NCBI GenBank assembly: GCA_964645905.1 | Contig: CAZYBR010000001.1 | Span: forward strand, 1 to 58,430 | Reading direction: 5' to 3' | Source of the DNA: an uncultured archaeon | GTDB taxonomy: Archaea > Aenigmatarchaeota > Aenigmatarchaeia > CG10238-14 > SCSR01 | Length of the DNA: 58,430 bases | Shown: in pieces, positions 9,831-33,599 of the stretch | How the letters are laid out: each line of letters opens with the position of its first letter | Position numbering within the stretch: position 1 is the first letter of the stretch | Position numbers and translations under genes: made by a program | The notes under the pieces: model-generated | Seen by the model: only the letters and a program-made list of their open reading frames with translations | The model's database searches: none | What the model was told of the DNA's origin: nothing

Positions 9831-9916
9831 TGCGCCAATCGGGATTTGAACCCGAACATTGACCTTGGGAAGGTCACATCCTTTCCTGCATTTGAACCAG
9901 GCTAGACTATTGGCGC
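9831..9916 (-). tRNA. tRNA-Gly(CCC) with about 11 extra nt in the D arm (putative non-canonical intron)
   Basis: Reverse complement: GCGCCAA TA GTCT AGCCTGGTTCA[AATGCAGGAAA]GGAT G TGACC TTCCCAA GGTCA ATGT TCGGG TTCAAAT CCCGA TTGGCGC A. Acceptor, anticodon and T arms are perfect. 27 nt lie between position 13 and the anticodon stem, where about 14-16 are expected. Confidence 0.75.
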
Positions 9917-10516: not shown

Positions 10517-10609
10517 CGCTGAGGATGGGAGTCGAACCCACATAGGCTTGCGCCCGCCAGTTTTCCCGATAAATTCGAGACTGGTGCACTACCATTATGC
10601 GACCCCAGC
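10517..10609 (-). tRNA. tRNA-Ser(CGA) with an 11-nt intron at the canonical 37/38 position
   Basis: Reverse complement: GCTGGGG TC GCAT AATGGTA GTGC A CCAGT CTCGAA[TTTATCGGGAA]A ACTGG CGGGCGCAAGCCTAT GTGGG TTCGACT CCCAT CCTCAGC G. The long variable arm fits class II Ser. Confidence 0.85.
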
Positions 10610-19940: not shown

Positions 19941-20507
19941 ATGAAATCTGCTTTTATTGTGCACGGATGGGGAGGAAACCCGAATGAAGGGTGGTTCCCG
20001 TGGTTGAAAAAGAACCTGCAGCGAAATGGTTTTGTCGTTCAAGTGCCTGTACTGCCGATGCCTGAGATGCCCCAGATAGACAGGTGGGTATCGGCATTGA
20101 GAAGAGCTGTCGGGACTCCGAACGAACAGATGTATTTTGTCGGGCACAGCATGGGATGCCAGACGATTGCCAGATTTCTCGAATCTCTGCCTGCAAATGT
20201 AAAGGTCGGTGGAGCCGTATTTGTTGCCGGATTCTTCAAGAGACTTACAGGTATAGAAACTGACGAAGAAAAGGCAATAGATAACCATTGGCTTGGGACG
20301 CCGATTGACCTTGAAAGGGTCAAGGCGCATTTGAATAAAAGTGTTGCGATTTTTTCCGACAATGATCCATTTGTCCCGCCGGACAACCAAGATGATTTCC
20401 GCCAAAAACTTGGATCTGAAATAATAGTAGAACGCAGAAAAGGGCACTTTAGTGGATTGTTGGAGCTGCCTTCTGCTTTCGAAGCTGTTCTAAGAATATC
20501 TAAATGA
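19941..20507 (+). CDS. Alpha/beta serine hydrolase (YdeN/RBBP9-like)
   Basis: FIVHGWGGNPNEGWFPWLKKNL at the N-terminus and the nucleophile elbow GHSMG. Confidence 0.7.
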   Translation: MKSAFIVHGWGGNPNEGWFPWLKKNLQRNGFVVQVPVLPMPEMPQIDRWVSALRRAVGTPNEQMYFVGHSMGCQTIARFLESLPANVKVGGAVFVAGFFKRLTGIETDEEKAIDNHWLGTPIDLERVKAHLNKSVAIFSDNDPFVPPDNQDDFRQKLGSEIIVERRKGHFSGLLELPSAFEAVLRISK

Positions 20508-20908
20508 CATTAGGCGAAGCTCTATCTTCTTACCCTTAGACTATCGGCGCATCCTCTCACATGTGCTTTGTAGAGTCTTACAGATTTTCTCATATGGCAT
20601 TTCGGGCAATTATGTTTCAATTTAATCACTTACAGAAGAATTAGTTTCCAGTATTTGCAAATTAGTAGAAAATAATTTCGCTGTACAATTCCTTTTTATT
20701 GTAAGGATAAATAGGGCTAAATACGTCTAATTATTTAGTTGAACTTCTAGAAGAAAAAGGGATAATTAAAGAACATGAGTTTGACAAGAAGTTGAAAGAA
20801 AGATTAAAAAAAAGTTCAAAGTTAACTAAATTTGATGATTTATAAATTATCCTGTGCGATTAAAACTCATTTTCAATAAATGGTATTTCAAAAAAATAGA
20901 GCTAATGC

Positions 20909-22441
20909 CTATTTTACCACAGCCTCAAACGGAATACTGATGTCAGGTTTGACGGGATCATTCGATAAAATAAATATTTCGCCTTTGTAAGTTCTGGGTG
21001 GTGCCACCTCTATTGGAAATTCTGCCGTATATATAATTTCGCTCTGCGGATTGAGGAAAAAATGAGAATAATCTCCATCCATTATTTGCCAAGAGCTAAA
21101 ACCGAAAGCCTCCTGCCACCCCTCGTTTGATTTATGATACCACGGATGCAAAAACATATAACCTAGTAATTTTAATGGAGAATTCCCCAAATTTTTAATC
21201 TTTAGATCCATTTTTGGTTGAGTATTTGTAAAATATAGCTTGGTTGGTTCAATACTAATTATTGGGTCATTAGGTTGGTGTGTAGTTGGTCTTTCTATAT
21301 AACGCATTCTTAAAGTTAAATCGCCGAAGGCATTAGAGCCCCCTAAGGGGCTGATTTTTATTGCTTCGTATAACGGTTCCCCAATTGATAATAAGTAATA
21401 CATCGCTGGGTCTGGAATTCCTGTTCCAAAAATTACTACCGGAGCCGCAAAGACCACCAAACCTTCACCGTTAAATAAATAATTACCAGCGATATAATCT
21501 TCTGTTATAAATCTTCCGACAGAGCAAGAGACAAACACCCCTAAAAAGAAACTGACATCAGAAATATCATTCGGGGTGATATTTTTACCATGAAAAGTGG
21601 GGGTACCATGAGCATTTACAAATAAAAGTTCATATTTATGTGGCTTTTTTATTTCGTCTAAATACAGCTGATCTGAATTTTCTTTTCCTGCATCTATAAA
21701 GGTGATACTTTTTTCGTCATACATATTAAAAGCTTTTAAATTGTTTTTAATTCCCGATATGGTATTTCCTCGATATGGTTCAGCTTGTTCCCATATTACT
21801 GGTTCGTACAATAAAATTTTTTGATCATAAGAATATTGACCTGTTCTGTATTCATGATTTCTTTTAAAATAATCCTTTAATAAGGATAATGCGTTTTTTG
21901 TAGAAGAGTTTGGAGTTAATCTAGAAACCCAAAAGGGCGGAATTTGAGTATTCTGGCAATCTGGGTTTGAGTAATCAAAAGCGTCCCACTCATTTGAATA
22001 TTTACAAGCATCGTAAATGTCTTGATAAATATAATCGTATAATGGTAAATCATCTTTTTGATAATACCCAGCAGGGTGATAAAATTTCCCGCTTGGTATA
22101 TCACCGATTAATAGTACCCCATTTAATCGCTGATCATTATAGATTTGTGCGATATACGATTTGATTTCAGAAACACTAGTAGAGGAGGAAAATGTTTTTA
22201 TAATCGTTTGAAAACCAAATTCTTTTTTTACATCATTGCTATAAGTATTAAGTTCTTGAGTAAGCCCATCTCGCAGAGTATCTTCGACTATTAAAAGCAA
22301 GGTATCCTTTTTAATAGTTTGCTGTATATCAGGTACTTGTGTGGGATTTTCTTTAGGTTGAATTAGTATATATGTTATACCAGCACTTACAACAATAGCT
22401 ACGATTATCAGAAGTACAATAAGACTAGAAACACCTTTCAT
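20909..22441 (-). CDS. Membrane-anchored or secreted clan-CD cysteine peptidase-like protein (gingipain/C25-like)
   Basis: N-terminal TM helix. LLLIVEDTL...EIKSYI...VLLIGDIP layout, then a His-Gly / Cys dyad context (FVNAHGTP...VFVSCSVGRF). Confidence 0.5.
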   Translation of the reverse strand: MKGVSSLIVLLIIVAIVVSAGITYILIQPKENPTQVPDIQQTIKKDTLLLIVEDTLRDGLTQELNTYSNDVKKEFGFQTIIKTFSSSTSVSEIKSYIAQIYNDQRLNGVLLIGDIPSGKFYHPAGYYQKDDLPLYDYIYQDIYDACKYSNEWDAFDYSNPDCQNTQIPPFWVSRLTPNSSTKNALSLLKDYFKRNHEYRTGQYSYDQKILLYEPVIWEQAEPYRGNTISGIKNNLKAFNMYDEKSITFIDAGKENSDQLYLDEIKKPHKYELLFVNAHGTPTFHGKNITPNDISDVSFFLGVFVSCSVGRFITEDYIAGNYLFNGEGLVVFAAPVVIFGTGIPDPAMYYLLSIGEPLYEAIKISPLGGSNAFGDLTLRMRYIERPTTHQPNDPIISIEPTKLYFTNTQPKMDLKIKNLGNSPLKLLGYMFLHPWYHKSNEGWQEAFGFSSWQIMDGDYSHFFLNPQSEIIYTAEFPIEVAPPRTYKGEIFILSNDPVKPDISIPFEAVVK

Positions 22442-22480
22442 ATTAAAACTTTGTTAAGATACAAATAAAAAGTACTTTTT

Positions 22481-22535
22481 ACCAACCTTAATTGAGACAA
22501 TGTCCCCCCGCCAAGTTCTGTTAACTTAAGGTTGG
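22481..22535. repeat. Intergenic palindromic element with a C-run core (copy A)
   Basis: ACCAACCTTAATTGAGACAATGTCCCCCCGCCAAGTTCTGTTAACTTAAGGTTGG. The arms CCAACCTTAA/TTAAGGTTGG flank a CCCCCCGCCAAG core. Related copies lie at 24793-24836 and 33162-33185. Confidence 0.7.
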
Positions 22536-22572
22536 CGAAAACTAAAAAAATTAAATCCTGAAAAGCTCGGTT

Positions 22573-23240
22573 TCATCGTCTCCCATCTTCAATCTCAAAC
22601 ATACTTAAAATGGATTCTGTTGTTCTTTGAGCTTCTTGTGGATCAATTTCATCTGTGATTGCGACATCATAAGTAGGAGTTATTTCAGCATGACAATGCT
22701 CGTGTTCTAAATACCATAAAACATCATCATCGGTAACACTAAAAACTGGGATTTCATAAACAAACACTTTCGCTGAACCATCAAATCCTCTTGTTGTATT
22801 TGCAAAAAAGACACCTCCAGAATAAGGTCTGCCACTTCTAATTTCTCTGCGAAACCTTTCTAAAGTAAGTTGAACTTGTCTTTCCTTTTCGATTCGTTGT
22901 CTGATGAATTCTTCTCTTTCAGGGTATCTAATGAATTGTTCTTCCCAGAATTCTATAGTTTTTCTACCGTTTGGATCATAAACAACTTCGGTATGAGCAA
23001 AAGAAACTTTACCTATACTAAGTATTTTATCTAAATACGCTTGAACAACTTTTGGGTCAGAACTTCTTTTAGCATTTTTAGAGTTACCTCTGGTTCTCTA
23101 GTGAGATAATTCCAAAGATAGCTACCTATCCCACCGCTTACAGCTATACCCTCGACTACAAGTAAACTTTTCTTTAAAAAGTTCCTTCTTGTTATTGTTA
23201 GTTCTCTAGATGTTTTTCTTTGTCTTCTGCTTTTGGACAT
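22573..23240 (-). pseudogene. Twin-arginine-signal protein gene split by a frameshift (or sequencing indel)
   Basis: ORF 23240-23031 encodes MSKSRRQRKTSRELTITRRNFLKKSLLVVEGIAVSGG (Tat-like). A second frame is open from 23097 down to 22573 but has no ATG/GTG/TTG until 22767. The frames overlap at 23034-23097, a stretch containing A4-A5 runs. The downstream part carries HEHCH. Confidence 0.45.
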
Positions 23241-23311
23241 AGAAACAATAGAAGAATAATAACTTTATTAACTTTCTTGAATATCTGTCCAGTTTGTTCA
23301 AATATGTGAAA

Positions 23312-23500
23312 TTATTCTGGTGGGCGTGGTGGCTTCTCCTCTGTTACTATAGGAGGTGTAGTTGTTTCGGCTGGAGGTTGCGTTGTAGAAGTTGGTTGTT
23401 CTGATTGTGATAATTTTAAAACATTCCAAAGTACTAATGCACCACCTATAACAATCAGCAAAATTATCAATGCTATTATAATCGTTTTCATATTTTTCAC
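23312..23500 (-). CDS. Small membrane-anchored Pro/Thr-rich protein (62 aa)
   Basis: N-terminal TM helix (IIIALIILLIVIGGALVLW), then a QPTSTTQPPAETTTPPIV...PPRPPE tail. Overlaps the stop of the upstream gene by 4 nt. Confidence 0.45.
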   Translation of the reverse strand: MKNMKTIIIALIILLIVIGGALVLWNVLKLSQSEQPTSTTQPPAETTTPPIVTEEKPPRPPE

Positions 23501-24756
23501 CTATCAGCTAATTCACAATCATTTGTAACTTTTATGAAATAACCTCTAAATAATTTCAAATTGTTATTAAACGGTTTAGAGAATTTATTCTCATCCACAA
23601 TTTCACCCGTCCCCGGATTCATCGATAAAAATTGCCATGGACCTTTTTCTATTTCACAGGTCCCTTTTATATCATTGAAGTTTAGGAGATTAACGGTGGT
23701 ACCACCCTCGAATTTTTCTGTGTACCCAAGCGCAGTAATTGGAGAATTTATGAGATTCCAACCGGTTTTTAATCTTAAGCCCCTCAATGTAACTGATTTC
23801 GTTCCTGATATAAGAATATCACAATCATTACTAGATCTGACATTGTTTTTAGTCTGTACTTCTACCCAAAGTCCTTTTTGTGTTGGTATTTTGGTCCCTT
23901 CTTCAAGTTTTCCAATTTTCGCGTAATCTCCAATATTATTATTCCATGACCAGATTGTTGCCTTGTTACAAGTGCTCTCTAGAACTGTTCCGTATCCATC
24001 ACCATCTTCTATTGGAATAGAAAACAAATTCCATCCAGTACTAAATGTTATTTTTGATGCCTTTTCTACCAGAACATCAATTTTCTTGTTTGTACTATCT
24101 ACGTTTTTGACATTTACATATGATCCGTAAAATCCATTTACAGCATCACCCAATAGTTTATTATTGGTGTCATAAAGGCTGAAATCTGCCGTACCCCATC
24201 TATCGTTAATCTTATCGAAAACAAGGCGATAACCATTGCCTAAAGTTAATTGTTCTCCGATACTTAACGTTGAAATTACACCACCTTTATATGTAAGTTC
24301 CTTTACAACTTCTTCTATTTCTGTTGGTTGCTGCTGTATTGCACCGGGTAATAGTTCATCAATAGATTCAATTGTAATCTGGGCATTTTCGTATCTTGAT
24401 GCAGCTGCTGAAACTGGAGTACTTTCGCCAGAGACACCCAAAATAGATATCTTTAATTTCAGATGTGTGCTATTGCCAAATTTCTTTGGACCCTCCAATT
24501 TAGTAATCGACTCTGTATAAGTACTTGTTATATCTTTTCCACTGTCATCATAAATAATAAAACCAAGTGTTTCACCAGAAGGGGCATAAACAATTGATTT
24601 AATTTCTATTTTCCAATCATCACTAACAGTTACGGTGTCACCCAATTTAACTGTATAAGTTCCATCACCAGAATATTGAGCAGCTATAACAATTGGTATA
24701 ATAAATAAAAATGTAAGTATAATTACTAAACTTAATTTTTCGAGATGTCTATTCAT
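23497..24756 (-). CDS. Secreted or membrane-anchored hypothetical protein (419 aa)
   Basis: N-terminal hydrophobic signal/anchor (LSLVIILTFLFIIPIVIAA). Composition suggests a beta-rich protein. No catalytic motif seen. Confidence 0.55.
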   Translation of the reverse strand: MNRHLEKLSLVIILTFLFIIPIVIAAQYSGDGTYTVKLGDTVTVSDDWKIEIKSIVYAPSGETLGFIIYDDSGKDITSTYTESITKLEGPKKFGNSTHLKLKISILGVSGESTPVSAAASRYENAQITIESIDELLPGAIQQQPTEIEEVVKELTYKGGVISTLSIGEQLTLGNGYRLVFDKINDRWGTADFSLYDTNNKLLGDAVNGFYGSYVNVKNVDSTNKKIDVLVEKASKITFSTGWNLFSIPIEDGDGYGTVLESTCNKATIWSWNNNIGDYAKIGKLEEGTKIPTQKGLWVEVQTKNNVRSSNDCDILISGTKSVTLRGLRLKTGWNLINSPITALGYTEKFEGGTTVNLLNFNDIKGTCEIEKGPWQFLSMNPGTGEIVDENKFSKPFNNNLKLFRGYFIKVTNDCELADR

Positions 24757-24792
24757 AAAAATAATTAGTTTAGATATTAATAAAAAGATTAT

Positions 24793-24836
24793 ACCAACCT
24801 TAAGTTAACAGTGTCCCCCGCCAGGTTCTGGTAAGT
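24793..24836. repeat. Intergenic C-run element (copy B)
   Basis: ACCAACCTTAAGTTAACAGTGTCCCCCGCCAGGTTCTGGTAAGT. Its left arm is the reverse complement of the right arm of copy A. The core CCCCCGCCAGG is shared. Confidence 0.7.
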
Positions 24837-24936
24837 CTTTGACGGTTAGTTAGTGCACAAGTATATTTGTTAAGACTCGATTGGTAGATTTCTTTAAAAG
24901 ATAAGAATTTCAATGTGTTAAAATTCAATTGGTTAT
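24824..24936. repeat. Left arm of the ~113-bp inverted repeat bracketing the 24.9-33.1 kb island
   Basis: GGTTCTGGTAAGT (24824-24836), then 78 nt, then GTGTTAAAATTCAATTGGTTAT (24915-24936), directly followed by the ATG at 24937. It matches the right arm read on the minus strand. Confidence 0.8.
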
Positions 24937-25647
24937 ATGGAAACCTTAAGCCCCTGGATTAATGGACTGATAGACAGTCTTACTGCTACAAGACTTATTT
25001 TAAACACAAATATAGAAAGCAGGAATAGGTTAGCTTTAATTCTATTGGATAGCACATTAGAAGTTTCTTTTAAAAACTACTTAAGCTATGTAAAGGACAT
25101 TAAAAAATTACCAGATAATGTGCTTAAAAATAGAGAAGAACTGCACAAAATTGTTAAGCGCAATACAACCTTTGGAAAAGACATCTGGGACAGTATAGAT
25201 TATTTTTATGATAAAAGAAATGATTTGTATCATGAAGATGTTGGGAAGACTTTGCCAGATCTAAGTATATTAGATTTTTTCAACCTTGTGATATTTATCA
25301 TTGATCAATTATTCTCTATCAATTCACAAGCTTTGATTAAGAACCCTAATGAAGTTTTAGTTAAAATATCTACAAAGAAGATTGGTATAAACAAAACCAA
25401 ATCCAAAATAGAAGCTATAATTGTAGCTGTGGGGTATTCTAACAAAATTGCCTCGAGTTCGGAAATAAAAGACATCCTTAATAGACTAGGTTACAAACAG
25501 ATGCTTACGCCCAGTCAGATTAACACTTTAATGAAGAATAAATATTATAAACATTACTTTTATTACGATAGAAAGGAGAGTACATGGACTTTAAGTGACG
25601 TGGGACAAGATGAGTATTATAGAATGTTAGCTGAATATGGTGAATGA
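24937..25647 (+). CDS. HEPN-like (Rx4H) protein with a C-terminal Mrr_N-like winged-helix module
   Basis: All-helical N-terminal ~130 aa with YDKRNDLYHED (R94-N-x3-H99, the classic RNxxxH HEPN motif). C-terminus ...SSSEIKDILNRLGY...STWTLSDVGQDEY resembles a wH reader domain. Confidence 0.5.
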   Translation: METLSPWINGLIDSLTATRLILNTNIESRNRLALILLDSTLEVSFKNYLSYVKDIKKLPDNVLKNREELHKIVKRNTTFGKDIWDSIDYFYDKRNDLYHEDVGKTLPDLSILDFFNLVIFIIDQLFSINSQALIKNPNEVLVKISTKKIGINKTKSKIEAIIVAVGYSNKIASSSEIKDILNRLGYKQMLTPSQINTLMKNKYYKHYFYYDRKESTWTLSDVGQDEYYRMLAEYGE

Positions 25648-26241
25648 ATGACAGATGAAATAAAAAAGAAAGAAATGAACGTGATTGCCAAAATAGATAC
25701 TCCAAACTTTAAGCTTGAAATTAATACAGTAGTAGACAGAGCAGACTTAGATGATACTCTTTCTTTTATACTATCCACCTTTGAAAAGAATTACAAAAAA
25801 ATAGATAAGATGTACGGATCAACAATAATCCAACCGACTTTACAAAAAGAAACTAAGGTAGAATATCCGTTTAAAGAGTTAAGCGAACCTGTAATAAACA
25901 TCGCTAGAAGAATGGGGGTGAACCCAGAAAAACTGATTGGTAATAATTTATTTGGGTTCAAGAGTGATAAACCGCAAATTTTTGATCCTTCAAGATTCAA
26001 GAGTGCCAATACAGCTGTGCGTGCATTAGTATATCTTTTTGAGATAGGATTAGGAAAGCAATCAGTCCAAAAAGAAGAGTTAGGAGAAGCTTATGAAATT
26101 AGTAAAATAAAGGGTAGAAAAGTTTCTCAATTGCTGCAAGATCTTAGAAAAATAGGTCAATTGGAAAAAAATGAAATAACACTTACAGCAAAAGGAACAA
26201 GTGAAGCTGAAAATGAGTTAAAAGCTTTGTTATCACTTTAG
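25648..26241 (+). CDS. Hypothetical partner protein of the HEPN-like gene (197 aa), possible C-terminal wHTH
   Basis: ATG immediately follows the upstream stop (TGAATG). C-terminus ...KVSQLLQDLRKIGQLEKNEITLTAKG is wHTH-like. No other motif seen. Confidence 0.45.
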   Translation: MTDEIKKKEMNVIAKIDTPNFKLEINTVVDRADLDDTLSFILSTFEKNYKKIDKMYGSTIIQPTLQKETKVEYPFKELSEPVINIARRMGVNPEKLIGNNLFGFKSDKPQIFDPSRFKSANTAVRALVYLFEIGLGKQSVQKEELGEAYEISKIKGRKVSQLLQDLRKIGQLEKNEITLTAKGTSEAENELKALLSL

Positions 26242-27387
26242 ATGTCTTTCTATAATAAATTTATATTTTGAGTGGAATAATTTGTAAAATTCAACCCACT
26301 TCTCAGCCTTCTCTCTAAACTCAAAATCAGTTCTCATACCGAGTTCTCTTTTCGGGTCCTGAAACTCATTTCCTTGCTCGTCAAGTATTTTTACCTTGTA
26401 GATTACGTCTTTCTCAGGTTCTGGAGCAGTATGACCATTGCCCTGATTACCATCAAGTTTAGATTCCATAGCCATTTTTACCAGTTCCATCCATCTGTTA
26501 CCACCGTTCAAATGAATGTTAATTCTGGAAGCCTCTGCAGGAGTCATGCCATTAAGAGACAGATGAGGTCTGATGAAGTTGTAGTAGGTCATAAATCCAT
26601 TCAGTATATCGGACGTGGATTCGGGTTGGTCAAAACCTCTTGTAACTTTTATTCTATCTCTAACAGTCCCATTAAACCTTTCAACAGGATTATTGTTGAT
26701 ACTTCCTCGCAGTCCAGTAGACCATACATGCTTAGTTTGTGGGTGCCTCCAGAATACCTTTCTAATAGCCTTATCGTAAGCTTGCAAACCGTCAGTAATC
26801 ACAACTTTAGGTTTGTTAATCAGTTTAGACTTACTCTCTTTGAATATCGCAACTGCATCAGCTTGATAACGAGCCTTGGATAATTTACAGGCAGTAATGA
26901 ACTTAGTTTCCTTGTCGATGACATTCCATAACCAGTACCATTTGCCTTTCACAGTAACCATCATTTCATCGGCATGAAGAACACCAGAACTTTCTCCTTT
27001 CAGCTTATCAGTAAATTCCTTGAAGATCTTCGAATATTTCCTTATCCAAAATAAGATGGTTACATGGCTTACCTTTACTCCGTATATCTGCCTTAGATGA
27101 TCTTTGACTCCTCTCAATGACATATTCTTGAAGTAGAGGTCTAAGGCAACTGTTATGATTTCTCCTTTATGCTTCATCTTAGGAAAAGTAGTATTGTCTG
27201 AAAATATTTTCTTGCAGGACTTGCATTTGTAAATCTGAATATTACCGATCTTGTTCTTTCTGTTTCCATGTCTGATTACTTCACTCGCTTTACAGTACCT
27301 GCATTTTGTATCTTTACCCATAACGTCACCCATAACTCTATCAATAACTATACACTTACATATATTTAAAGTTATCGGTAACGCCAC
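26233..27387 (-). CDS. DDE transposase (IS6/IS1-like, integrase-core fold) with an N-terminal zinc finger and a ~75-aa C-terminal extension
   Basis: CRYC...CKSC zinc finger. DDE context HADEMMV..., VITDGLQAY..., NNNPVERFNGTVRDRIK. YNFIRPHLSLNGMTPAEA is typical of the integrase core. The true start may be an internal Met (MGKDTKCRYC). Confidence 0.7.
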   Translation of the reverse strand: MALPITLNICKCIVIDRVMGDVMGKDTKCRYCKASEVIRHGNRKNKIGNIQIYKCKSCKKIFSDNTTFPKMKHKGEIITVALDLYFKNMSLRGVKDHLRQIYGVKVSHVTILFWIRKYSKIFKEFTDKLKGESSGVLHADEMMVTVKGKWYWLWNVIDKETKFITACKLSKARYQADAVAIFKESKSKLINKPKVVITDGLQAYDKAIRKVFWRHPQTKHVWSTGLRGSINNNPVERFNGTVRDRIKVTRGFDQPESTSDILNGFMTYYNFIRPHLSLNGMTPAEASRINIHLNGGNRWMELVKMAMESKLDGNQGNGHTAPEPEKDVIYKVKILDEQGNEFQDPKRELGMRTDFEFREKAEKWVEFYKLFHSKYKFIIERHLK

Positions 27388-27432
27388 CGATAGATTTATA
27401 AGTACTCGATGATATTCTTATTTAGTGATATT

Positions 27433-27651
27433 ATGGAACTCGATAAAGAGGCACAAATTATACTAAAGTTAATTGAAGACTCTAAAGAACCTTTGGAAAC
27501 TAGGGAGGTAGAAGAGAAATTTAAAAATCTCTCAAGATCTAAGATTTTGTACAGATTAAATCAACTGAGAGCTGAGGGTATGATTAAAGGTAAATCTATT
27601 GGTGCAGGTAAAGGTAACTGGGTTTGGTGGAGTAAAGAATCGTTTAGGTAA
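27433..27651 (+). CDS. Small winged-helix protein (72 aa), first gene of the type III R-M operon
   Basis: MELDKEAQIILKLIEDSKEPLETREVEEKFKNLSRSKILYRLNQLRAEGMIKGK is wHTH-like. Its stop overlaps the next ATG (TAATG). The track start at 27409 is also possible. Confidence 0.5.
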   Translation: MELDKEAQIILKLIEDSKEPLETREVEEKFKNLSRSKILYRLNQLRAEGMIKGKSIGAGKGNWVWWSKESFR

Positions 27652-27887
27652 TGATTATGGCAGGACAGTATGAAACACTAAGTTGTCCATTTTGTGATAA
27701 AGGCAAGATAACTTGCTTGTATTTCCCTAGTGTTATTAGCGTTAAAAGAGAGAAGTCCGCTACCTTTGGTTCTAAAACATCAAGAAGTAAATCTTCTGAT
27801 ACATGGCTTGTCCAATCTGGGTGCAGCTTTTGTGGTAAATCACAAGAAGAAGTGGAGAAGGAACTAAAAAAGCGAGATATCATTTAA
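27651..27887 (+). CDS. Small zinc-ribbon protein (78 aa)
   Basis: CPFC...(41 aa)...CSFC four-Cys arrangement. Translationally coupled to the upstream wHTH gene. Ends 17 nt before mod. Confidence 0.5.
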   Translation: MIMAGQYETLSCPFCDKGKITCLYFPSVISVKREKSATFGSKTSRSKSSDTWLVQSGCSFCGKSQEEVEKELKKRDII

Positions 27888-27904
27888 CAAAAGTAGGCTA
27901 AATT

Positions 27905-29842
27905 ATGGATGACTTAAAACTGTTATGGAAAAATAAGAAAGAAGAAGTAGATAAGATTGTATTACCTTTTCAGAAAATAGAGACAGTAACTATATCTCGA
28001 ACGGGTAAAGACACACTGAATGTATTAAGAAATACCGATAATAGTTCTTGGAAAAACAAACTTATTTGGGGTGATAATAAGTATATTCTGGCTTCTTTGT
28101 TAAAAGACCCTTCTATTGCCGGAAATATAAAACTAATTTATATAGATCCGCCTTTCTTCACAGGTACGAACATGAATATTCCTATTAAAATAGGTGATAC
28201 TAGTGAAGTCACAAAAGAACCTTCTGCAATTGAAGAAGTTGCTTATAGAAATATGTGGAAAGGAAACAGTAGAGAAGAGCAAGCATCATCTTTTTTGCAA
28301 TACATGTATGAACGAATAAAATTAATGCACGATTTGCTTTCGGAAGATGGTTCGATGTATGTAAGATTCGATTATCATTATTCTCATTATATTAAAATAA
28401 TACTGGATGAAATTTTCGATTATGATAATTTTAGAAATGAAATAATTGTAAATAGGACCAGAAAAAACGTTATGGAATCGCAAACACAAAGAGTTTTTCC
28501 TACTGCTACTGATTCTTTATTTTTTTATTCTAAAAATAATTCAGCATTTTTAAATAAAGTTGTCAAAAAACTTGAGCAAAAACGAGAGGGTTTTTGGAGA
28601 CACATGGATGATTCGGCGGGACAAGGAAGTCCAAAAATATTTTTTGGTAAAAAACTATCACCACCAGTCGGCAAACACTTCAAATATTCTCAAGAAAAAA
28701 TTGACGAAATGATTAAAAATGGAAAAATCAGATTACATTGCAAAAACTGCGGCTATGAACATACAGAAGGCAATTGGAATAAATGCCCCTCATGTAAAAA
28801 GGATAACCCAAGACCAGAATATTGGGTATCTGAACGAGAACACGCTTTACTAGATACAAATTGGACAGATATACCTGGTTATTCATTTAGTACAGGATAT
28901 CCAACCGAAAATTCCGAACATTTATTGGAGAGAGTTATACTCGCTTCTTCTAATCCAAGTGATTTAGTTGCTGACTTTTTTGCAGGATCGGGGACTACAA
29001 ACATAGTTGCCGAAAAGTTGAATCGTAGATGGATAGCTTGCGATATAGGAAGATTTTCAATTCATACAATAAGAAAACGACTTCTTGAAATACCTACATG
29101 CAAACCATTTGAAGTTCTTAATATGGGTAAATATGAAAGAAAATATTGGGCAACTGAGACATTAGGAGAAGATTATAAAAAATATATTGATTTTATTGTA
29201 CAATTATATAACGCCAAACCATTGAATAATTTTGAATATATTCATGGGAAAAAAGGTAGTAAGGCTGTTCATGTCGGATTAGTAGATTCACCTGTTTCAA
29301 AAAAAGAAATATTTGACGCACTCGCTGAATGTAAAAAAGTGGGCTTCGACAGTCTTGATGTGCTTGGCTGGGAATGGGAAATGGGTTTGAATGATTCAAT
29401 AATAAAAGATGCTAAAGATTTATTTACTGTGAATCTAGCTCTTTGGGTTATACCTAGAGAAGTGATGGATAAAAGGGCTGTGGAAGCGGGTGATATAGAC
29501 TTTTATGAACTTGCTCATTTACAAGTGGATGTTTCGAAAGAAGCTAGAGGTGTGAAAATTAAACTTGAAGATTTCATAATTCCTAACCCTGAGCTTATTC
29601 CTGCAGAAGTTCAGAAAAAAATTAAAAAATGGAGCGACTATATAGATTATTGGGCAGTTGACTGGGAATTTAAAGATGTTTTTCATAACGAATGGCAGAC
29701 ATATAGAACCAAAGACTCCTCTAATTTAAAACTTGAGACACCTTCTCATGATTATCGAAAAGGTGAGTACCAAATACTGATTAAAGTTATTGATATTTTC
29801 GGCAATGATACAAGTACGATAAGACGAATTGTGATAAAATGA
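27905..29842 (+). CDS. mod: Type III R-M DNA methyltransferase (Mod), beta-class N6-adenine/N4-cytosine
   Basis: Motif IV IYIDPPF precedes motif I DFFAGSGTT (beta order). The variable region between them has a CKNC...CPSC zinc ribbon. ATGA overlap with res. Confidence 0.85.
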   Translation: MDDLKLLWKNKKEEVDKIVLPFQKIETVTISRTGKDTLNVLRNTDNSSWKNKLIWGDNKYILASLLKDPSIAGNIKLIYIDPPFFTGTNMNIPIKIGDTSEVTKEPSAIEEVAYRNMWKGNSREEQASSFLQYMYERIKLMHDLLSEDGSMYVRFDYHYSHYIKIILDEIFDYDNFRNEIIVNRTRKNVMESQTQRVFPTATDSLFFYSKNNSAFLNKVVKKLEQKREGFWRHMDDSAGQGSPKIFFGKKLSPPVGKHFKYSQEKIDEMIKNGKIRLHCKNCGYEHTEGNWNKCPSCKKDNPRPEYWVSEREHALLDTNWTDIPGYSFSTGYPTENSEHLLERVILASSNPSDLVADFFAGSGTTNIVAEKLNRRWIACDIGRFSIHTIRKRLLEIPTCKPFEVLNMGKYERKYWATETLGEDYKKYIDFIVQLYNAKPLNNFEYIHGKKGSKAVHVGLVDSPVSKKEIFDALAECKKVGFDSLDVLGWEWEMGLNDSIIKDAKDLFTVNLALWVIPREVMDKRAVEAGDIDFYELAHLQVDVSKEARGVKIKLEDFIIPNPELIPAEVQKKIKKWSDYIDYWAVDWEFKDVFHNEWQTYRTKDSSNLKLETPSHDYRKGEYQILIKVIDIFGNDTSTIRRIVIK

Positions 29843-32376
29843 TGGGACCATTCAATAAACCTGATAATAGAATAGAGACATTCTGCCCATTGGTGTTAAA
29901 GATACGAGAAGAAGTCGACAAGTGGAGAGACTCTGGTTATGATGGTGTGTCAGAAACTACAAAAATTCTTCTTAATTTTTGGTTTAACGAAGGTCACATG
30001 TCTAATGGGAAACTATTCAAATATTATTTCTGCCAAAGAGAGGCAATCGAAACATTGGTATTTTTATTTGAAGTAAAACAAATTAGAACTCTCAGAGATC
30101 TTGTAATCAACTATGATATTAGCAAAAAAATTGCTTATAATCCTCATGATGATTTATTCACGAAATTTTGTTTTAAAATGGCTACAGCTTCTGGTAAAAC
30201 AAAAGTTATGGCTTTAGCAATAGTGTGGTCTTTTTTAAACAATGTCATAGAACAAAATAAAGATTTTTCCAAAAGTTTTATTATTATTGCGCCTAATATA
30301 GCTGTTTATGAAAGATTGAGAACAGATTTTTCAGGCGGTGAAATATTCAGAAGTGACCCCCTAATACCAGAAGAGTTTCAAAATTATTGGGATGTCGATG
30401 TTGTTTTAGAAGATGAATTAACAAGTCGGTCGGCAAAAGGTAGAATATATCTTACAAATGTCCAAAAACTTTATGAACGCTCAAATGATACTGAGAGCCT
30501 GAACCCCGTAGAAGCAATAGTTGGAACTAAACCGAGAGAAAAGAACGCATATGAAACTATTTTTGATGATTTAATGAAACTTGATGATATTTCTATAATT
30601 AACGATGAGGCTCACCATGTTTGGGATCCTGAATCGAAATGGAGTGAATTTATATCAAAACTTTTCAAACGATTTAAAAAAGATGGAAAACTATTTGCTT
30701 TCCAGCTTGATTTTTCCGCTACGCCAAAGAAGCAGAATGGCGGACTTTTTGAATGGGTTATAGCAGATTATCCTCTTGCTGATGCTATAAGAAATGGAAT
30801 TGTAAAAAGACCTATTATTGGAGAAGTTGAAAATGCAAAAGAGACTCCATCGGAAAGAGCCGATATTGTTTACAGAGATTACATAGAAGCTGGAATAAGG
30901 AGGTGGAGGAGATACAGAGAAGTCATGATAAACGTAAAGAAGAATCCTATAATATTTTTCATGGCTACTAAAACGAAAGAAGCTGAAGATATAAGAGATT
31001 TTCTAGAAACAAAATCCGATTTCAAAGGTAAGGTTCTTTTGATTCATACGAATTTGAAAGGGGATATAAGTGAAAAGGAATGGACTAAACTTAAAGAAGA
31101 ATCAAGAAATCTAGATTCTGATAGCGACAAATATCGAGCTGTCGTAAGTGTTCTTATGCTTAGAGAAGGATGGGATGTTAAAAATGTAACTATTATAGTA
31201 GGTCTCAGACCGTATACTTCCAAAGCCAACATACTACCAGAACAAACGTTGGGAAGAGGATTGAGATTAATGTTTGGTCCTAAATCTGGGTTTGAAGAAA
31301 CTGTAGATGTTTTCGGTTCTAGTGCATTTATTGACTTTATCGATTCTGAGTTAAAGAAGGAAGGCGTTAGAATTCAGAGACTTAAAGAAAGGGAAATGCC
31401 AGATGTTACTAATATTTTCGTTGACCCAAGGAAAATGAAATTCAATGTAGAAATTCCCAATATAACTCCTAAGTATACAAGAATAAACAGATCATTTGAT
31501 GACATTAAGGTTGAGAATCTTCCCAAAGGTCCATTTGAATTAGATTTGAAATCGTACTCGATAAAGAAAATAGCTAAAGGAAGAGATGCCTTAACGAATA
31601 AAGAAGTTTGGAAAGATCAATGGAACCAAATTATACCTGAAAACTTTGAGTCTATAATAGGTTATTATTCGAATCGTATACTTAGAGAATGTAAAATACC
31701 ATCGCGAAACTATGAATTTATCCCGAAATTAAAGGAGTACATTTTAAAACGTTTATTTGGCAGAGAACTTACCGAAAAAGAAATCAGCAACAAACTTTTC
31801 TTAAGGCAGTTCATAGAATCAAGCATATACTCCTATTTAATGACGCTATTCCCGAGAGTTATAAACACTTTGACCATAACACCGCAAGAAGTTAAACTGA
31901 ATCAAGAACCTAAAATGGCGTCTCATGTAGAGCCATTTCTGACTAGGAAGGAAGTCTACAATTCAAAGAAATGCATATTGAATTTAGTACCTATTGATAA
32001 TGATTTGGAAGGTAGGTTCTGTATTTTTTTGGATTCGGCTAAAGATGTTAAAACATTTATTAAGAACGATGTGAATCTGAACTTCTATATAGAATACGTC
32101 AATGAGAAAAAAGGAATTTCGTATTATGTACCAGATTTTGTTATAGAAACTAACAATGAATTCTTTATTGTAGAAACTAAGGGTGTTGAAACGGAGGATG
32201 TGGAATTCAAGGATAAGAGAGCTACTGAATGGTGTGAAGATGCTTCAAAATTAACAGGTAAAAAATGGGAGTATATCAAAGTAAAACAAATAATTTTTGA
32301 CGAAAACCAGAACATAAAAACATTCAGTAAATTAGTGGAGTTGATAAAGGCATATCAACTAGCGACGAATTATTAA
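29839..32376 (+). CDS. res: Type III restriction enzyme Res subunit (SF2 helicase + PD-(D/E)xK nuclease)
   Basis: MATASGKTKV (Walker A), NDEAHH (DEAH box), LMLREGWDV, and a C-terminal nuclease motif YVPDFVIE...FFIVETKG. Confidence 0.85.
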   Translation: MMGPFNKPDNRIETFCPLVLKIREEVDKWRDSGYDGVSETTKILLNFWFNEGHMSNGKLFKYYFCQREAIETLVFLFEVKQIRTLRDLVINYDISKKIAYNPHDDLFTKFCFKMATASGKTKVMALAIVWSFLNNVIEQNKDFSKSFIIIAPNIAVYERLRTDFSGGEIFRSDPLIPEEFQNYWDVDVVLEDELTSRSAKGRIYLTNVQKLYERSNDTESLNPVEAIVGTKPREKNAYETIFDDLMKLDDISIINDEAHHVWDPESKWSEFISKLFKRFKKDGKLFAFQLDFSATPKKQNGGLFEWVIADYPLADAIRNGIVKRPIIGEVENAKETPSERADIVYRDYIEAGIRRWRRYREVMINVKKNPIIFFMATKTKEAEDIRDFLETKSDFKGKVLLIHTNLKGDISEKEWTKLKEESRNLDSDSDKYRAVVSVLMLREGWDVKNVTIIVGLRPYTSKANILPEQTLGRGLRLMFGPKSGFEETVDVFGSSAFIDFIDSELKKEGVRIQRLKEREMPDVTNIFVDPRKMKFNVEIPNITPKYTRINRSFDDIKVENLPKGPFELDLKSYSIKKIAKGRDALTNKEVWKDQWNQIIPENFESIIGYYSNRILRECKIPSRNYEFIPKLKEYILKRLFGRELTEKEISNKLFLRQFIESSIYSYLMTLFPRVINTLTITPQEVKLNQEPKMASHVEPFLTRKEVYNSKKCILNLVPIDNDLEGRFCIFLDSAKDVKTFIKNDVNLNFYIEYVNEKKGISYYVPDFVIETNNEFFIVETKGVETEDVEFKDKRATEWCEDASKLTGKKWEYIKVKQIIFDENQNIKTFSKLVELIKAYQLATNY

Positions 32377-32407
32377 TCGTTTTAAATAATATGTGAACTA
32401 ATGTCAA

Positions 32408-33064
32408 CTAATTCTCTTGTAGAATAGAAGGATACGATCTTTTAATTTCTGTAATTAATTTATTAATACCAGTCTCTATATCATCGGTGCGAATTTTAAT
32501 GCCTTGTTTTTGTTCTGCCAGACCAGTTATGTTAGTTTCGTCGAAAATAAGTGGAACTACTATTTTATCTTTAGCCATAGCATATCCAGTCTCTTGATTT
32601 GCCCAAGCCGATAAATTAAAATTATCTGTAATTAACGGGAGGAATAAATCACAAGAGTCCAAGTGTTTTTCTATTTCGTCTCTCCATTCAGATGATATCT
32701 CGACTTCTTCATGAGCTAAAAAAGATTTTATGTTGAATTTTCCTAGTTCTTCTTTAACTTTACCTGCAATATTTTTATCTTTAGTGTTATAACTCAAGAA
32801 TGCTTCTCTTGACATCTCGTCTAGTGTTATGATAGTCTCAGAGCCGTGTCTTTCAAGCTTTTCCACACGTCCAATTATAGGAGGGTTGAGTTTTTGAAGT
32901 GGTATAGTCATCATGGGTCTATCAAAGGAACCTACTTCTCCTGTTGATGAGTTTTCTATAGCAGGTGTTCTAATTGAGGTTTGACTGTAGAAATACGCCT
33001 CAGTAATCTTGATCATGTCACCTCTTCTTGCATTAAATGTGCCACTAATAGCTACAGTTATCAT
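32408..33064 (-). CDS. TIR-like domain protein with an uncharacterised ~90-aa N-terminal domain
   Basis: C-terminal half AFLSYNTKDKNIAGKVKEEL...FLAHEEV...SCDLFLPLITDNFNLSAWANQETGYA follows the TIR pattern (FxSYxxxD ... S.W...E). The track start at 33070 is TTG; I use the ATG at 33064. Confidence 0.55.
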   Translation of the reverse strand: MITVAISGTFNARRGDMIKITEAYFYSQTSIRTPAIENSSTGEVGSFDRPMMTIPLQKLNPPIIGRVEKLERHGSETIITLDEMSREAFLSYNTKDKNIAGKVKEELGKFNIKSFLAHEEVEISSEWRDEIEKHLDSCDLFLPLITDNFNLSAWANQETGYAMAKDKIVVPLIFDETNITGLAEQKQGIKIRTDDIETGINKLITEIKRSYPSILQEN

Positions 33065-33174
33065 AACCAATTGAAATTTAACACTAGATGTATTTATTTA
33101 ATTCATAACTAAGAAACAACCGAAACTTAACACAAAATTTCTTTATAAGCACCAATCAACAACTTACCAGAACC
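33063..33174. repeat. Right arm of the ~113-bp inverted repeat bracketing the island
   Basis: Read on the minus strand: GGTTCTGGTAAGT (rc of 33162-33174), then 77 nt, then GTGTTAAATTTCAATTGGTTAT (rc of 33063-33084). This is 21/22 identical to 24915-24936, and its last bases overlap the ATG at 33064. Confidence 0.8.
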
Positions 33175-33185
33175 CCCCCCGCCAG
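33162..33185. repeat. Intergenic C-run element (copy C)
   Basis: ACTTACCAGAACCCCCCCCGCCAG. A C8 run plus GCCAG, as in copies A and B. On the minus strand it reads CTGGCGGGGGGGG. Confidence 0.6.
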
Positions 33186-33257
33186 AAGCTTTATATACTT
33201 TTATGTTATAGTTAATACTAAATTTAGTATTCGTTGTAACATAAACAAGGTGTAAAA

Positions 33258-33599
33258 ATGGCAGAAAAAAAGGGGATCATATTCGCATTCTCCATGAAGA
33301 CCGAGAAGATCTCGCCTTCGGAGAAGACAGTATTTTTCAGGAAGCTTTACGGATGGAAGCAGGTGGTCTCGAATGAGAACAAGAAATACGAGTACGAAAG
33401 GCATGGCATCCTCGACGAGATGCCTCACGCCAAAGTCGACCAGTCGTCCTTCATCATCCCGGAGGACAATTTTGAGCAGATAATGAATTTTTTTGACGAG
33501 TGGCACAGCAAGGTCTTGCTAAAGACTTTCAAAGTGCTATTAGATAGAGAGACTGAAGACATGTTCGATGACTTTGAAGTATTGGAAGAGGATGAATAA
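33258..33599 (+). CDS. Hypothetical protein (113 aa) with an acidic C-terminal tail
   Basis: ORF track. Ends ...DDFEVLEEDE. Its stop overlaps the next ATG (TAATG). No motif assigned with confidence. Confidence 0.45.
   Translation: MAEKKGIIFAFSMKTEKISPSEKTVFFRKLYGWKQVVSNENKKYEYERHGILDEMPHAKVDQSSFIIPEDNFEQIMNFFDEWHSKVLLKTFKVLLDRETEDMFDDFEVLEEDE

What the first reader, a model, noticed from the sequence alone, without database searches (positions are those of the whole stretch)
24937..26241. Two-gene module: HEPN-like (RNxxxH) + wH protein with an abutting partner of unknown fold
The 236-aa protein has an all-helical N-terminal domain containing KRNDLYHED (R94..H99, 25216-25233). This is the Rx4-6H signature of HEPN RNases, including the Asn after the Arg. 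It is followed by a C-terminal module resembling Mrr_N-type winged helices. The 197-aa partner starts on the base after its stop (TGAATG) and also ends in a wHTH-like segment. There is no MNT, AbiE or other known HEPN partner motif. Toxin-plus-regulator or sensor pairs of this kind next to R-M genes are typical of abortive-infection or TA-type defence, but I cannot place this pair in a named system.
Basis: partly seen in the sequence, partly recalled or inferred. Interest (0 to 1): 0.7.

Follow-up and report, generated by a model that had tools for sequence, protein, structure and literature searches.

The report
Unannotated HEPN RNase with obligate partner
Two abutting genes in a low-GC defence island of an archaeal genome encode a predicted RNA-cutting HEPN toxin fused to a winged-helix domain, plus a previously undescribed partner protein that always travels with it, which makes the pair a good but untested candidate for a new toxin-antitoxin or abortive-infection module.

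Summary

**A is a HEPN protein.**
- No Pfam, NCBIfam, PADLOC or PHROGs model matches A or B.
- R94/H99 and an upstream E42-x3-K46 motif are present in all 25 A-type lineages.
- An R-x4-H is present in 107 of 109 wider domain relatives.
- The confident AF2 model (pLDDT 88) shows the HEPN topology, with Rx4H at the end of helix 3, followed by a winged helix.
- Foldseek's best matches are HEPN proteins, with weak E-values.
- A relative found with the A profile passes Pfam's HEPN threshold.

**A and B are co-inherited.**
- All 23 evaluable lineages have an abutting B: 17 tandem, 6 convergent.
- The two proteins diverge together (r = 0.92).
- Flanking genes differ everywhere and are often defence genes.

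**Not supported or unresolved.**
- The 'Mrr_N-type' label for the winged helix is not supported.
- B's fold is unresolved. Its C-terminus looks like a wHTH.

**Best reading (confidence 0.55).** A is a HEPN RNase toxin or effector, restrained or controlled by B. This is a new variant of HEPN-based TA/Abi modules. Its nearest mechanistic analogue is the HEPN + WH effector pair of type IX retrons. RNase activity, toxicity and neutralisation are untested.

The parts
24937..25647 (+). Gene A: 236-aa HEPN + winged-helix protein
   Evidence: ORF. 11 close homologues and 25 lineages. AF2 pLDDT 88.
24952..25314 (+). HEPN-like domain of A (residues ~6-126): helix 1 6-22, helix 2 29-52, helical insert 60-75, helix 3 81-99, helix 4 108-126
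   Evidence: AF2 secondary structure. Foldseek HEPN matches. This is a mobile domain found in 342 representative proteins. Transitive Pfam HEPN hits.
25060..25074 (+). E42-V-S-F-K46, the Ex3[KR] motif in helix 2. With R31 and D38 it forms a conserved polar stripe.
   Evidence: E42 and K46 are invariant in A1. Ex3[KR] is present in 25/25 lineages. R31, D38 and E42 are at least 90% conserved in A3. The motif is defined in PMC3710099.
25216..25233 (+). R94-N-D-L-Y-H99, the Rx4H predicted catalytic motif at the C-terminal end of helix 3
25405..25638 (+). C-terminal winged-helix domain of A (residues ~157-234: three helices, a beta-hairpin and a terminal helix)
   Evidence: AF2. Foldseek matches to FOXN1/3, MarR, STIV F93 and Z-beta. 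No Pfam winged-helix family, Mrr_N included, among the hits.
25645..25650 (+). TGAATG junction: A's stop is followed immediately by B's start
   Evidence: In other tandem lineages the spacing runs from a 29-nt overlap to a 57-nt gap as called by my own ORF caller, which over-extended some B starts.
25648..26241 (+). Gene B: 197-aa obligate partner, a family with no annotation
   Evidence: ORF. Homologues. Adjacent to A in 23/23 evaluable lineages.
25882..26052 (+). Most conserved block of B (residues 79-135: SEPxxNIAR..PEKLIGNNLFGFKxDKPQIFD..FKS..R.L.YLFE.GL)
   Evidence: Alignments A2 and A4.
26005..26235 (+). wHTH-like C-terminal region of B (residues ~120-196)
   Evidence: Sub-threshold Pfam hits, all to wHTH families: MCM_C, Rrf2, TrmB, Crp, PadR and DUF7636. 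H-H-H-strand-H pattern in a low-confidence model.
24757..24936 (+). Upstream intergenic region, including a TTTAAAA (24893-24899) 38-44 nt before the ATG. This could be an archaeal TATA box (inference only, in 70% A+T DNA).
   Evidence: Sequence. No significant repeats or bacterial-type signals.

Best explanation
A and B form a self-contained, horizontally mobile two-gene toxin/effector module of the HEPN class.

- **A** is a metal-independent HEPN endoribonuclease. Its predicted active site is R94/H99 at the end of helix 3, backed by E42/K46, and probably also R31/D38, on helix 2. Like other HEPN RNases it presumably acts as a dimer. It carries its own C-terminal winged-helix domain.
- **B** is a dedicated partner with a wHTH-like C-terminus. 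It binds A and keeps the RNase silent, or otherwise gates it. It may also bind nucleic acid.
- When B is lost, titrated or displaced, for example during virus infection, A cleaves cellular and/or viral RNA and arrests growth.

**Shown computationally:** the HEPN fold and motifs, the domain organisation, strict co-inheritance and co-divergence of A and B, and the variable, defence-rich genomic contexts.

**Inferred:** RNase activity, toxicity, direct A-B binding, the direction of control (B inhibits A), and the trigger.
For: **HEPN identity**
- Rx4H sits at the end of model helix 81-99, running into the loop before helix 108-126.
- Ex3K lies in helix 29-52, and there is a helical insert at 60-75. 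These are the features PMC3710099 uses to define HEPN.
- Foldseek's top N-domain hits are HEPN proteins, including HEPN-MNT toxins and Csm6'.
- The bridge protein P0148 links the A profile to Pfam HEPN. Five of 50 relatives hit HEPN_RiboL-PSP.
- Only R31, D38, E42, R94 and H99 are at least 90% conserved across the superfamily sample.

**Conflict-system character of the domain**
- The same domain is fused to paraMORC-like GHKL ATPases, TPR arrays, RelA/SpoT, and DUF4268 (PADLOC PDC-S11).

**Pairing**
- 23 of 23 evaluable lineages have B abutting A. The pairing persists through an inversion, with 17 tandem and 6 convergent arrangements.
- Mirror-tree r = 0.92, with 0 of 2000 permutations as high.
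- B evolves faster than A: mean pairwise identity is 30% against 43%.
- B never accompanies the other architectures.

**Mobility and defence context**
- The flanking genes differ in every locus.
- Neighbours include Type III R-M plus TIR (window), an MvaI/BcnI REase (L006), a type II REase plus three TIR-like genes (L043), BrxP/SspD-like and IetA-like genes (L038), and an integrase fragment (L007).
- The pair lies in a ~13-kb low-GC island.

**Direction of toxicity (hint only)**
- Three lineages carry a damaged A beside an intact B. One is an in-frame deletion that removes the Rx4H motif. None shows the converse.

**Precedent**
- In retron-Kva2, a WH protein wraps a HEPN nuclease and occludes its active site until a phage trigger arrives.
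Against: - No experiment supports any of this. RNase activity and toxicity are inferred from motifs.
- A itself matches no Pfam HEPN model. Foldseek E-values are weak (0.3-2), and profile searches against PDB sequences found nothing.
- B's structure could not be predicted (pLDDT 43), so nothing shows that B binds A or occludes its active site.
- The toxin-first gene order, and the convergent arrangement in 6 lineages, are atypical for a classical co-transcribed type II TA operon.
- A carries its own winged helix, so B's wHTH is not obviously needed for autoregulation.
- The asymmetric decay rests on 3 cases. Two are frameshifts in metagenome assemblies and could be assembly errors.
Confidence: 0.55

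Rival explanations
1. Sensor-effector defence pair in which B activates rather than inhibits. B, and/or the two winged-helix domains together, recognises an invader nucleic acid or protein and switches on the otherwise latent HEPN RNase of A. In this reading A alone is not toxic and there is no addiction logic.
For: - Both proteins carry winged-helix-type modules.
- B evolves faster than A, as expected for a component facing an arms race.
- The convergent arrangement in 6 lineages shows that co-transcription and fixed stoichiometry are not needed.
- The contexts are defence islands.
Against: - Decayed A beside intact B, with no converse case, fits a toxic A better, although the numbers are small.
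- The only mechanistic precedent for a HEPN + WH pair is inhibitory occlusion.
- The very tight abutment and overlap of the genes in 17 lineages resembles TA-type coupling.
Confidence: 0.22
2. Housekeeping or regulatory RNA-processing pair. A is a site-specific RNase, or a non-lytic RNA-binding protein, for a cellular RNA, and B is its specificity or regulatory subunit. There is no role in conflict.
For: [quoted passage not shown]
- In the Nanoarchaeota SAG the pair sits between a histidine-biosynthesis operon and ordinary genes.
Against: - The distribution is extremely patchy. Among one genome from each of 185,579 species, full-length A was found only in one Nanoarchaeota SAG.
- The flanks differ in every locus.
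- The pair lies in a low-GC island, next to R-M, TIR, IS and integrase genes.
- Host GC ranges from 30% to 59%, which indicates horizontal transfer.
Confidence: 0.1
3. A is a non-catalytic HEPN-fold regulator, like MtlR or the substrate-binding HEPN domains. It works with B purely as a DNA-binding transcription-factor pair.
For: - Both proteins end in winged-helix-like modules.
- Some HEPN families have lost catalysis and act as regulators (PMC3710099).
Against: Non-catalytic HEPN families characteristically lose the Rx4-6H motif. Here R94, H99 and E42 are the most conserved positions in the whole superfamily sample.
Confidence: 0.05

Closest known systems
HEPN-MNT type II/VII toxin-antitoxin modules (HEPN-T, Pfam PF05168; e.g. 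PDB 7bxo, 8xeh, 7ae6)
   Same: - A small HEPN RNase with Rx4H, encoded as a mobile two-gene module with a dedicated partner.
- They are among the best structural matches to A's N-domain.
- A relative of A (P0148) scores above threshold for PF05168.
   Different: - The partner is not a nucleotidyltransferase: B has no NTP_transf_2/MNT hit.
- A lacks the Tyr two residues after the His (RX4HXY, recalled from the HEPN-MNT literature rather than tested here) that MNT AMPylates. A reads R-N-D-L-Y-H-E-D.
- The gene order is HEPN first.
- A has an extra winged-helix domain.
Type IX retron (Retron-Kva2) HEPN + WH dual effectors (bioRxiv 10.64898/2026.07.14.738597)
   Same: - A HEPN nuclease is paired with a separate protein of similar size (245 aa against 197 aa) that ends in an HTH or winged-helix domain.
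- There the partner wraps the HEPN and occludes its active site until a phage trigger arrives. This is the mechanism proposed here for B.
   Different: - No reverse transcriptase and no retron ncRNA lie near the pair.
- The Kva2 HEPN lacks the canonical Rx4-6H, whereas A has it.
- There is no detectable sequence similarity: neither A nor B hits any PADLOC model, apart from weak viperin noise for B.
- Here the HEPN protein has a winged helix of its own.
paraMORC (GHKL ATPase)-HEPN fusions, described for the Ymh family in R-M neighbourhoods (PMC3710099)
   Same: The closest sequence relatives of A's HEPN domain are the C-terminal domains of ~525-aa HATPase_c_3 proteins, which are widespread in bacteria.
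   Different: - In A the ATPase is replaced by a C-terminal winged helix plus the separate protein B.
- B never accompanies the GHKL fusions.
- PF09509 (Ymh) is not among the Pfam hits of these proteins.
EC042_2821/DUF3644 and RiboL-PSP HEPN families (PMC3710099 Table 1)
   Same: - These are HEPN families with a conserved Rx4-6H.
- EC042_2821 is fused to wHTH and REase domains in R-M operons.
- Some relatives of A's domain give weak hits to DUF3644 (2 of 50) and HEPN_RiboL-PSP (5 of 50, best E 3.7e-6).
   Different: - A itself hits neither model.
- It has no REase, Zn-ribbon or L-PSP domain.
- The defining feature here is the separate partner B.
RnlA-RnlB / LsoA-LsoB (HEPN toxin followed by a small antitoxin)
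   Same: A toxin-first gene order, with a HEPN RNase toxin and a direct-binding protein antitoxin (from general knowledge of these systems and PMC3710099).
   Different: There is no sequence or architectural similarity. RnlA is a three-domain protein, and RnlB has no wHTH. This comparison was not tested beyond the negative family searches.

Membership tests
HEPN superfamily | [quoted passage not shown] | tested here: met
   The AF2 model (pLDDT 88) has helices 6-22, 29-52, an insert at 60-75, then 81-99 and 108-126. Foldseek's best N-domain matches are HEPN structures with TMt 0.5-0.67, although E-values are only 0.3-2. Definition from PMC3710099.
HEPN superfamily | [quoted passage not shown] | tested here: met
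   R94-x4-H99 lies at the C-terminal end of model helix 81-99. It is invariant in 25/25 A-type lineages, and an R-x4-H is present in 107/109 domain relatives.
HEPN superfamily | Polar residue (mostly N, D or H) immediately after the R | tested here: met
   It is N95 in the window protein. Across the family it is N, C or S, and rarely I, T or R, so the position is variable rather than fixed.
HEPN superfamily | Upstream conserved acidic residue in helix 2, typically as Ex3[KR] | tested here: met
   E42-V-S-F-K46 lies in model helix 29-52. Ex3[KR] is present in 25/25 lineages, and E42 is at least 90% conserved in A3.
HEPN superfamily | Significant match to a curated HEPN-clan sequence model | tested here: inconclusive
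   A itself has no Pfam hit. The link is indirect. P0148, found by the A-only profile at E 4e-10, scores 31.3 bits against the cut-off of 22 for PF05168. Five of 50 relatives hit HEPN_RiboL-PSP.
HEPN superfamily | Metal-independent endoribonuclease activity dependent on the R and H | not testable with these tools
   Needs an in vitro RNase assay with R94A/H99A controls.
Type II toxin-antitoxin system | Two small adjacent genes that are co-transcribed | tested here: inconclusive
   17 lineages are tandem, mostly abutting or overlapping. Six are convergent with a 4-nt overlap of the 3' ends, so they cannot be co-transcribed.
Type II toxin-antitoxin system | The toxin arrests growth, and the antitoxin protein neutralises it by direct binding | not testable with these tools
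   The only hint is indirect: three decayed A genes lie beside an intact B, with no converse case.
HEPN-MNT TA | A minimal nucleotidyltransferase (MNT) partner | tested here: not met
   B has no NTP_transf_2/Polbeta hit. No MNT gene is adjacent in the window.
Type IX retron | A reverse transcriptase and an msr/msd ncRNA adjacent to the HEPN and WH genes | tested here: not met
   No RT is found among the neighbouring ORFs. There is no Rfam match other than tRNAs in the whole window.
   Mrr_N is not among the Pfam hits of any of 11 A homologues, even at E <= 10. The structural matches are generic winged helices: FOXN, MarR, F93 and Z-beta.
Catalogued anti-phage defence systems (PADLOC-DB v2) | Match of either protein to a system model | tested here: not met
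   A has 0 hits. B has only weak viperin noise (E 0.003-0.025).

The most novel reading that the evidence does not exclude
A-B is a free-standing archaeal abortive-infection system. A partner protein (B) physically cages a canonical Rx4H HEPN RNase, and the two winged-helix modules, one on each protein, jointly read an invader-derived nucleic acid that releases the nuclease. On this reading it is the minimal 'HEPN + WH' core. Type IX retrons would have elaborated that core with an RT and msDNA, and bacteria would have replaced it with a fused paraMORC ATPase.
Probability: 0.2. Interest if true: 0.7.

Novelty: new variant of a known kind. Interest (0 to 1): 0.55.

Why it matters
HEPN RNases are among the commonest effectors of prokaryotic immunity and TA systems, but each family is controlled differently: by MNT AMPylation, RnlB binding, cOA/CARF, or msDNA plus a WH protein.

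- This pair adds a HEPN family that is missing from Pfam, NCBIfam, PADLOC and PHROGs. Its partner also has no annotated relatives.
- The named genomes that carry it are archaeal, including a DPANN member (Nanoarchaeota).
- A 2026 survey of 7,747 archaeal genomes reports that nearly one-third have no detected defence systems beyond CRISPR-Cas and R-M (PMC12988326).
- The same HEPN domain ties together a large unannotated set of bacterial GHKL-HEPN, TPR-HEPN and RelA/SpoT-HEPN proteins. Characterising A would therefore annotate several hundred protein clusters.
- If B proves to be an occluding inhibitor, that would show the retron-IX HEPN-WH control logic operating without a retron.

Tried and rejected
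- **Direct family searches.** A and B gave nothing significant against Pfam, NCBIfam, PADLOC or PHROGs.
- **Searches against PDB sequences.** Profiles A1, A2 and A3, and the single protein P0148, gave nothing meaningful.
- **AF2 model of B.** With only 6 sequences the model reached pLDDT 43 and is unusable, so no fold search was attempted on it.
- **Are A's and B's C-terminal winged helices specifically related?** hhalign gave E 0.02 in winged-helix register, against 0.27-0.57 for control domain pairs. This is inconclusive and is not claimed.
- **Retron hypothesis.** Rejected. There is no RT and no ncRNA.
- **HEPN-MNT membership.** Rejected. There is no MNT, and no Tyr at H+2.
- **Mrr_N label.** Rejected.
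- **Virus-borne module.** One scan of viral contigs returned a single locus, matching only the HEPN domain. The BFVD fold search was uninformative.
- **Regulatory repeats or operators** upstream of A, and bacterial-type promoters or terminators. Nothing rose above shuffled expectation.
- **Terminal inverted repeats of the IS.** None were found.
- **One search is circular.** It compared P0148 with A3, but P0148 is a member of A3, so it is not used as evidence.
Full report
**1. The observation**

- The window contains ORF A (24937-25647, +, 236 aa) and ORF B (25648-26241, +, 197 aa).
- A's TGA is followed directly by B's ATG.
- The peptide KRNDLYHED is present, with R94 at 25216-25218 and H99 at 25231-25233.
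- Neither protein has a significant hit in Pfam, NCBIfam, PADLOC or PHROGs.
- The neighbours are:
  - a divergent secreted Ig-like protein upstream;
  - an IS240-type DDE transposase (26233-27387, minus strand), whose stop overlaps B's last 9 nt;
  - a small wHTH gene and a Zn-ribbon gene;
  - a Type III Mod/Res pair;
  - a TIR/ThsB-like gene.

**2. Protein A is a HEPN-superfamily protein with a C-terminal winged helix**

*Close homologues.* There are few of them: 11 in 5.8 billion clusters. Down to 40% identity, R94, L97, Y98, H99 and E100 are invariant, as is the stretch N30-R31...D38-S39...E42..F45-K46.

*Structure.* An AF2 model built on that alignment is confident (pLDDT 88).
- It has helices at 6-22, 29-52, 60-75, 81-99 and 108-126.
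- These are followed by a three-helix, beta-hairpin, helix module at 157-234.

*Match to the published definition.* The 2013 census of the superfamily (PMC3710099) defines HEPN by four features:
- a four-helix bundle, often with an insert between helices 2 and 3;
- Rx4-6H at the end of helix 3, running into the loop before helix 4;
- a polar residue after the R;
- an upstream acidic residue in helix 2, 'typically as part of an Ex3[KR] motif'.

A matches each point. Helix 2 carries E42-x3-K46, the insert is 60-75, R94-H99 closes helix 3, and N95 follows the Arg.

*Fold search.* Foldseek against the PDB puts HEPN proteins at the top for the N-terminal half: 1wwp, 1wol, 4nqf, the HEPN-MNT toxins 7bxo and 8xeh, 1o3u, 2hsb, 2q00 and Csm6'. 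It puts generic winged helices at the top for the C-terminal half: FOXN1/3, MarR, STIV F93 and Z-beta. E-values are only 0.3-2.

*Sequence support is indirect but real.*
- An exhaustive hmmsearch with the A-only profile found 342 representative proteins.
- One of them, P0148 (E 4e-10), scores 31.3 bits against Pfam HEPN PF05168, whose cut-off is 22, over model positions 3-112 of 117.
- In a 50-sequence sample of the domain, 5 members hit HEPN_RiboL-PSP (best E 3.7e-6). Others weakly hit NTase_sub_bind, DUF4145 and DUF3644.
- In that sample only five columns are at least 90% conserved: R31, D38, E42, R94 and H99.
- 107 of 109 full-length domain hits contain an R-x4-H, nearly all of them of the form R-[N/C/S]-x-x-x-H.

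**3. The domain's wider family**

Residues ~4-130 of A form a mobile module.
- Most often it is the C-terminal domain of ~525-aa HATPase_c_3 (GHKL, paraMORC-like) proteins, found in many bacterial phyla and some archaea.
- It also occurs alone (135-170 aa).
- It occurs N-terminal to TPR arrays, to a RelA/SpoT domain, and to DUF4268 (PADLOC candidate PDC-S11).
- These partners are typical of conflict systems.
- PMC3710099 already described paraMORC-HEPN fusions for the Ymh family in R-M neighbourhoods. PF09509 is not among the Pfam hits of the proteins found here.

**4. Protein B**

- B has 6 close relatives. With a broader profile it has 15, reaching ~21% identity and including a protein from a Methanomethylicaceae MAG.
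- Its most conserved part is a central block: SEPxxNIAR...PEKLIGNNLFGFKxDKPQIFD...FKS.
- The C-terminal ~75 residues give only sub-threshold Pfam hits, but all of them are to wHTH families: MCM_C, Rrf2, TrmB, Crp, PadR and DUF7636.
- AF2 failed on B (pLDDT 43), so the fold is unresolved.

**5. Co-inheritance**

I combined contig look-ups with genome and metagenome scans and my own HMM searches of the fetched loci.

| Measure | Result |
|---|---|
| Distinct A-type (HEPN + wH) lineages, below 90% identity | 25 |
| Lineages with a B gene abutting A | 23 |
| Lineages that cannot be scored (contig ends 6 and 133 nt after A) | 2 |
| Tandem A->B | 17 |
| Convergent, 3' ends overlapping by 4 nt | 6 |

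- My ORF caller puts the tandem spacing between a 29-nt overlap and a 57-nt gap. It over-extended some B starts.
- The pairing has therefore survived an inversion, and it does not depend on co-transcription.
- Pairwise identities of A and B are strongly correlated (r = 0.92; 0 of 2000 permutations reach that value).
- B diverges faster than A: mean identity is 30% against 43%.
- None of the 92 hits not classed as A-type, mostly GHKL-HEPN proteins, has a B neighbour, apart from four that proved to be A-type genes (with an over-called N-terminal extension) or fragments of A.

**6. Context**

- The flanking genes differ in every locus.
- Recognisable defence or mobility genes recur:

| Locus | Neighbouring genes |
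|---|---|
| Window | Type III R-M, TIR, IS |
| L006 | MvaI/BcnI REase |
| L043 | Type II REase and three TIR-like genes |
| L038 | BrxP/SspD-like and IetA-like genes |
| L007 | Integrase fragment |
| L001, L004 | Fic, MNT and MazE genes |

- In the window the pair (~30% GC) lies inside a ~13-kb low-GC island, at 20.5-33.5 kb. The island is 32-37% GC against a 40-46% background.
- The host is an archaeon: three of the four tRNA genes carry introns.
- The named genomes with the pair are a Nanoarchaeota SAG and a Methanomethylicaceae MAG.
- Loci carrying A-type genes range from 30% to 59% GC, which indicates wide horizontal spread.
- The pair is essentially absent from viral contigs.

**7. Mechanism**

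The best-supported reading is a HEPN RNase toxin or effector (A) controlled by a dedicated partner (B).

- *Shown computationally:* fold, motifs, obligate linkage, co-divergence, and mobile, defence-rich contexts.
- *Inferred:* catalysis, toxicity, direct binding, and the direction of control.

Two observations lean towards 'B restrains a toxic A'.
- Three lineages have a damaged A next to an intact B, and none shows the reverse. L041 and L066 carry frameshifts. L069 carries an in-frame deletion that removes the Rx4H motif, helix 4 and most of the winged helix.
- In the type IX retron Kva2, a WH protein wraps a HEPN nuclease and blocks its active site until a phage exonuclease triggers release.

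Against a textbook type II TA are the toxin-first order and the six convergent lineages.

The main rival is that B acts as a sensor or activator rather than an inhibitor. Housekeeping or purely regulatory roles are unlikely, given the patchy distribution and the conservation of the catalytic residues.

**8. Comparison with known systems, and novelty**

- The pair works like HEPN-based TA/Abi modules.
- It fails the defining tests for HEPN-MNT: it has no MNT, and no Tyr after the His.
- It fails the defining tests for type IX retrons: it has no RT and no ncRNA.
- It matches no catalogued defence system.
- It is therefore best filed as a new variant of a known kind: a canonical-motif HEPN domain in a new family, fused to a winged helix, with a new obligate partner.

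Interest is moderate. HEPN toxins with assorted partners are expected by specialists. The partner family is nonetheless new, the linkage evidence is unusually clean, the named hosts are archaeal (one of them DPANN), and the same HEPN family links several hundred unannotated bacterial proteins.

Noticed in passing
L011-L037 and L071-L125 (e.g. L011:4822-6390); proteins P0036, P0043: [quoted passage not shown] It is spread over many bacterial phyla and some archaea. It has no PADLOC hit, and PF09509 (Ymh) is not among its Pfam hits. The architecture parallels the paraMORC-HEPN fusions and sacsin (Hsp90-like + HEPN) noted in PMC3710099.
   Followed up: partly
proteins P0116, P0120, P0158, P0154: The same HEPN domain also occurs N-terminal to TPR arrays (~575 aa), to a RelA/SpoT synthetase domain (452 aa), to DUF4268 (PADLOC candidate PDC-S11; 511 aa), and to a weak Mrr_cat-like region (399 aa). 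These may be further uncharacterised conflict-system architectures.
   Followed up: partly
window 20500-33500: A ~13-kb low-GC island (32-37% GC against 40-46% elsewhere; the A-B pair is lowest at ~30%). It carries two secreted/Ig-like genes, A-B, an IS transposase, a Type III R-M system and a TIR gene, and was probably acquired horizontally.
   Followed up: partly
window 26233-27387 (-): An IS240-type DDE transposase (384 aa, with an N-terminal Zn-ribbon) whose stop codon lies inside the last 9 nt of gene B. B's C-terminus is nevertheless intact and conserved. No terminal inverted repeats were found, so the element's boundaries are undefined.
   Followed up: partly
window 27409-32376 (+): A Type III R-M operon (Mod 27905-29842, Res 29839-32376) is preceded by an 80-aa wHTH gene (27409-27651) and a 78-aa Zn-ribbon gene (27651-27887) in the same orientation. 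These may be a controller pair. Mod carries weak zinc-ribbon-type Pfam hits around residues 270-300.
   Followed up: no
window 32408-33070 (-); L043:3148-7182: A TIR_2/ThsB-like gene flanks the island in the window. Three TIR-like genes (PDC-S35, a TIR effector and a ThsB-like gene) lie within 5 kb of the A-B pair in the unrelated locus L043. TIR genes thus neighbour the pair in two loci; the significance is unknown.
   Followed up: no
window 9831-9916, 10517-10609, 47074-47199: Three tRNA genes of 86-126 nt (intron-containing) were found by Rfam but missed by ARAGORN in bacterial mode. This indicates an archaeal host.
   Followed up: no
L041:2522-3291, L066:2314-3071, L069:906-1280: Gene A is damaged next to an intact gene B in three lineages. 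Two are frameshifts. One is an in-frame deletion that removes the Rx4H motif, helix 4 and most of the winged helix. No case of a damaged B beside an intact A was seen.
   Followed up: partly
L052:2895-4040, L053:1639-2784, L056:1071-2186: In one soil-metagenome lineage the A-type ORF appears to carry an extra ~145 residues at the N-terminus (371-381 aa in total). This may be a real fusion or an over-called start. It was not examined.
   Followed up: no
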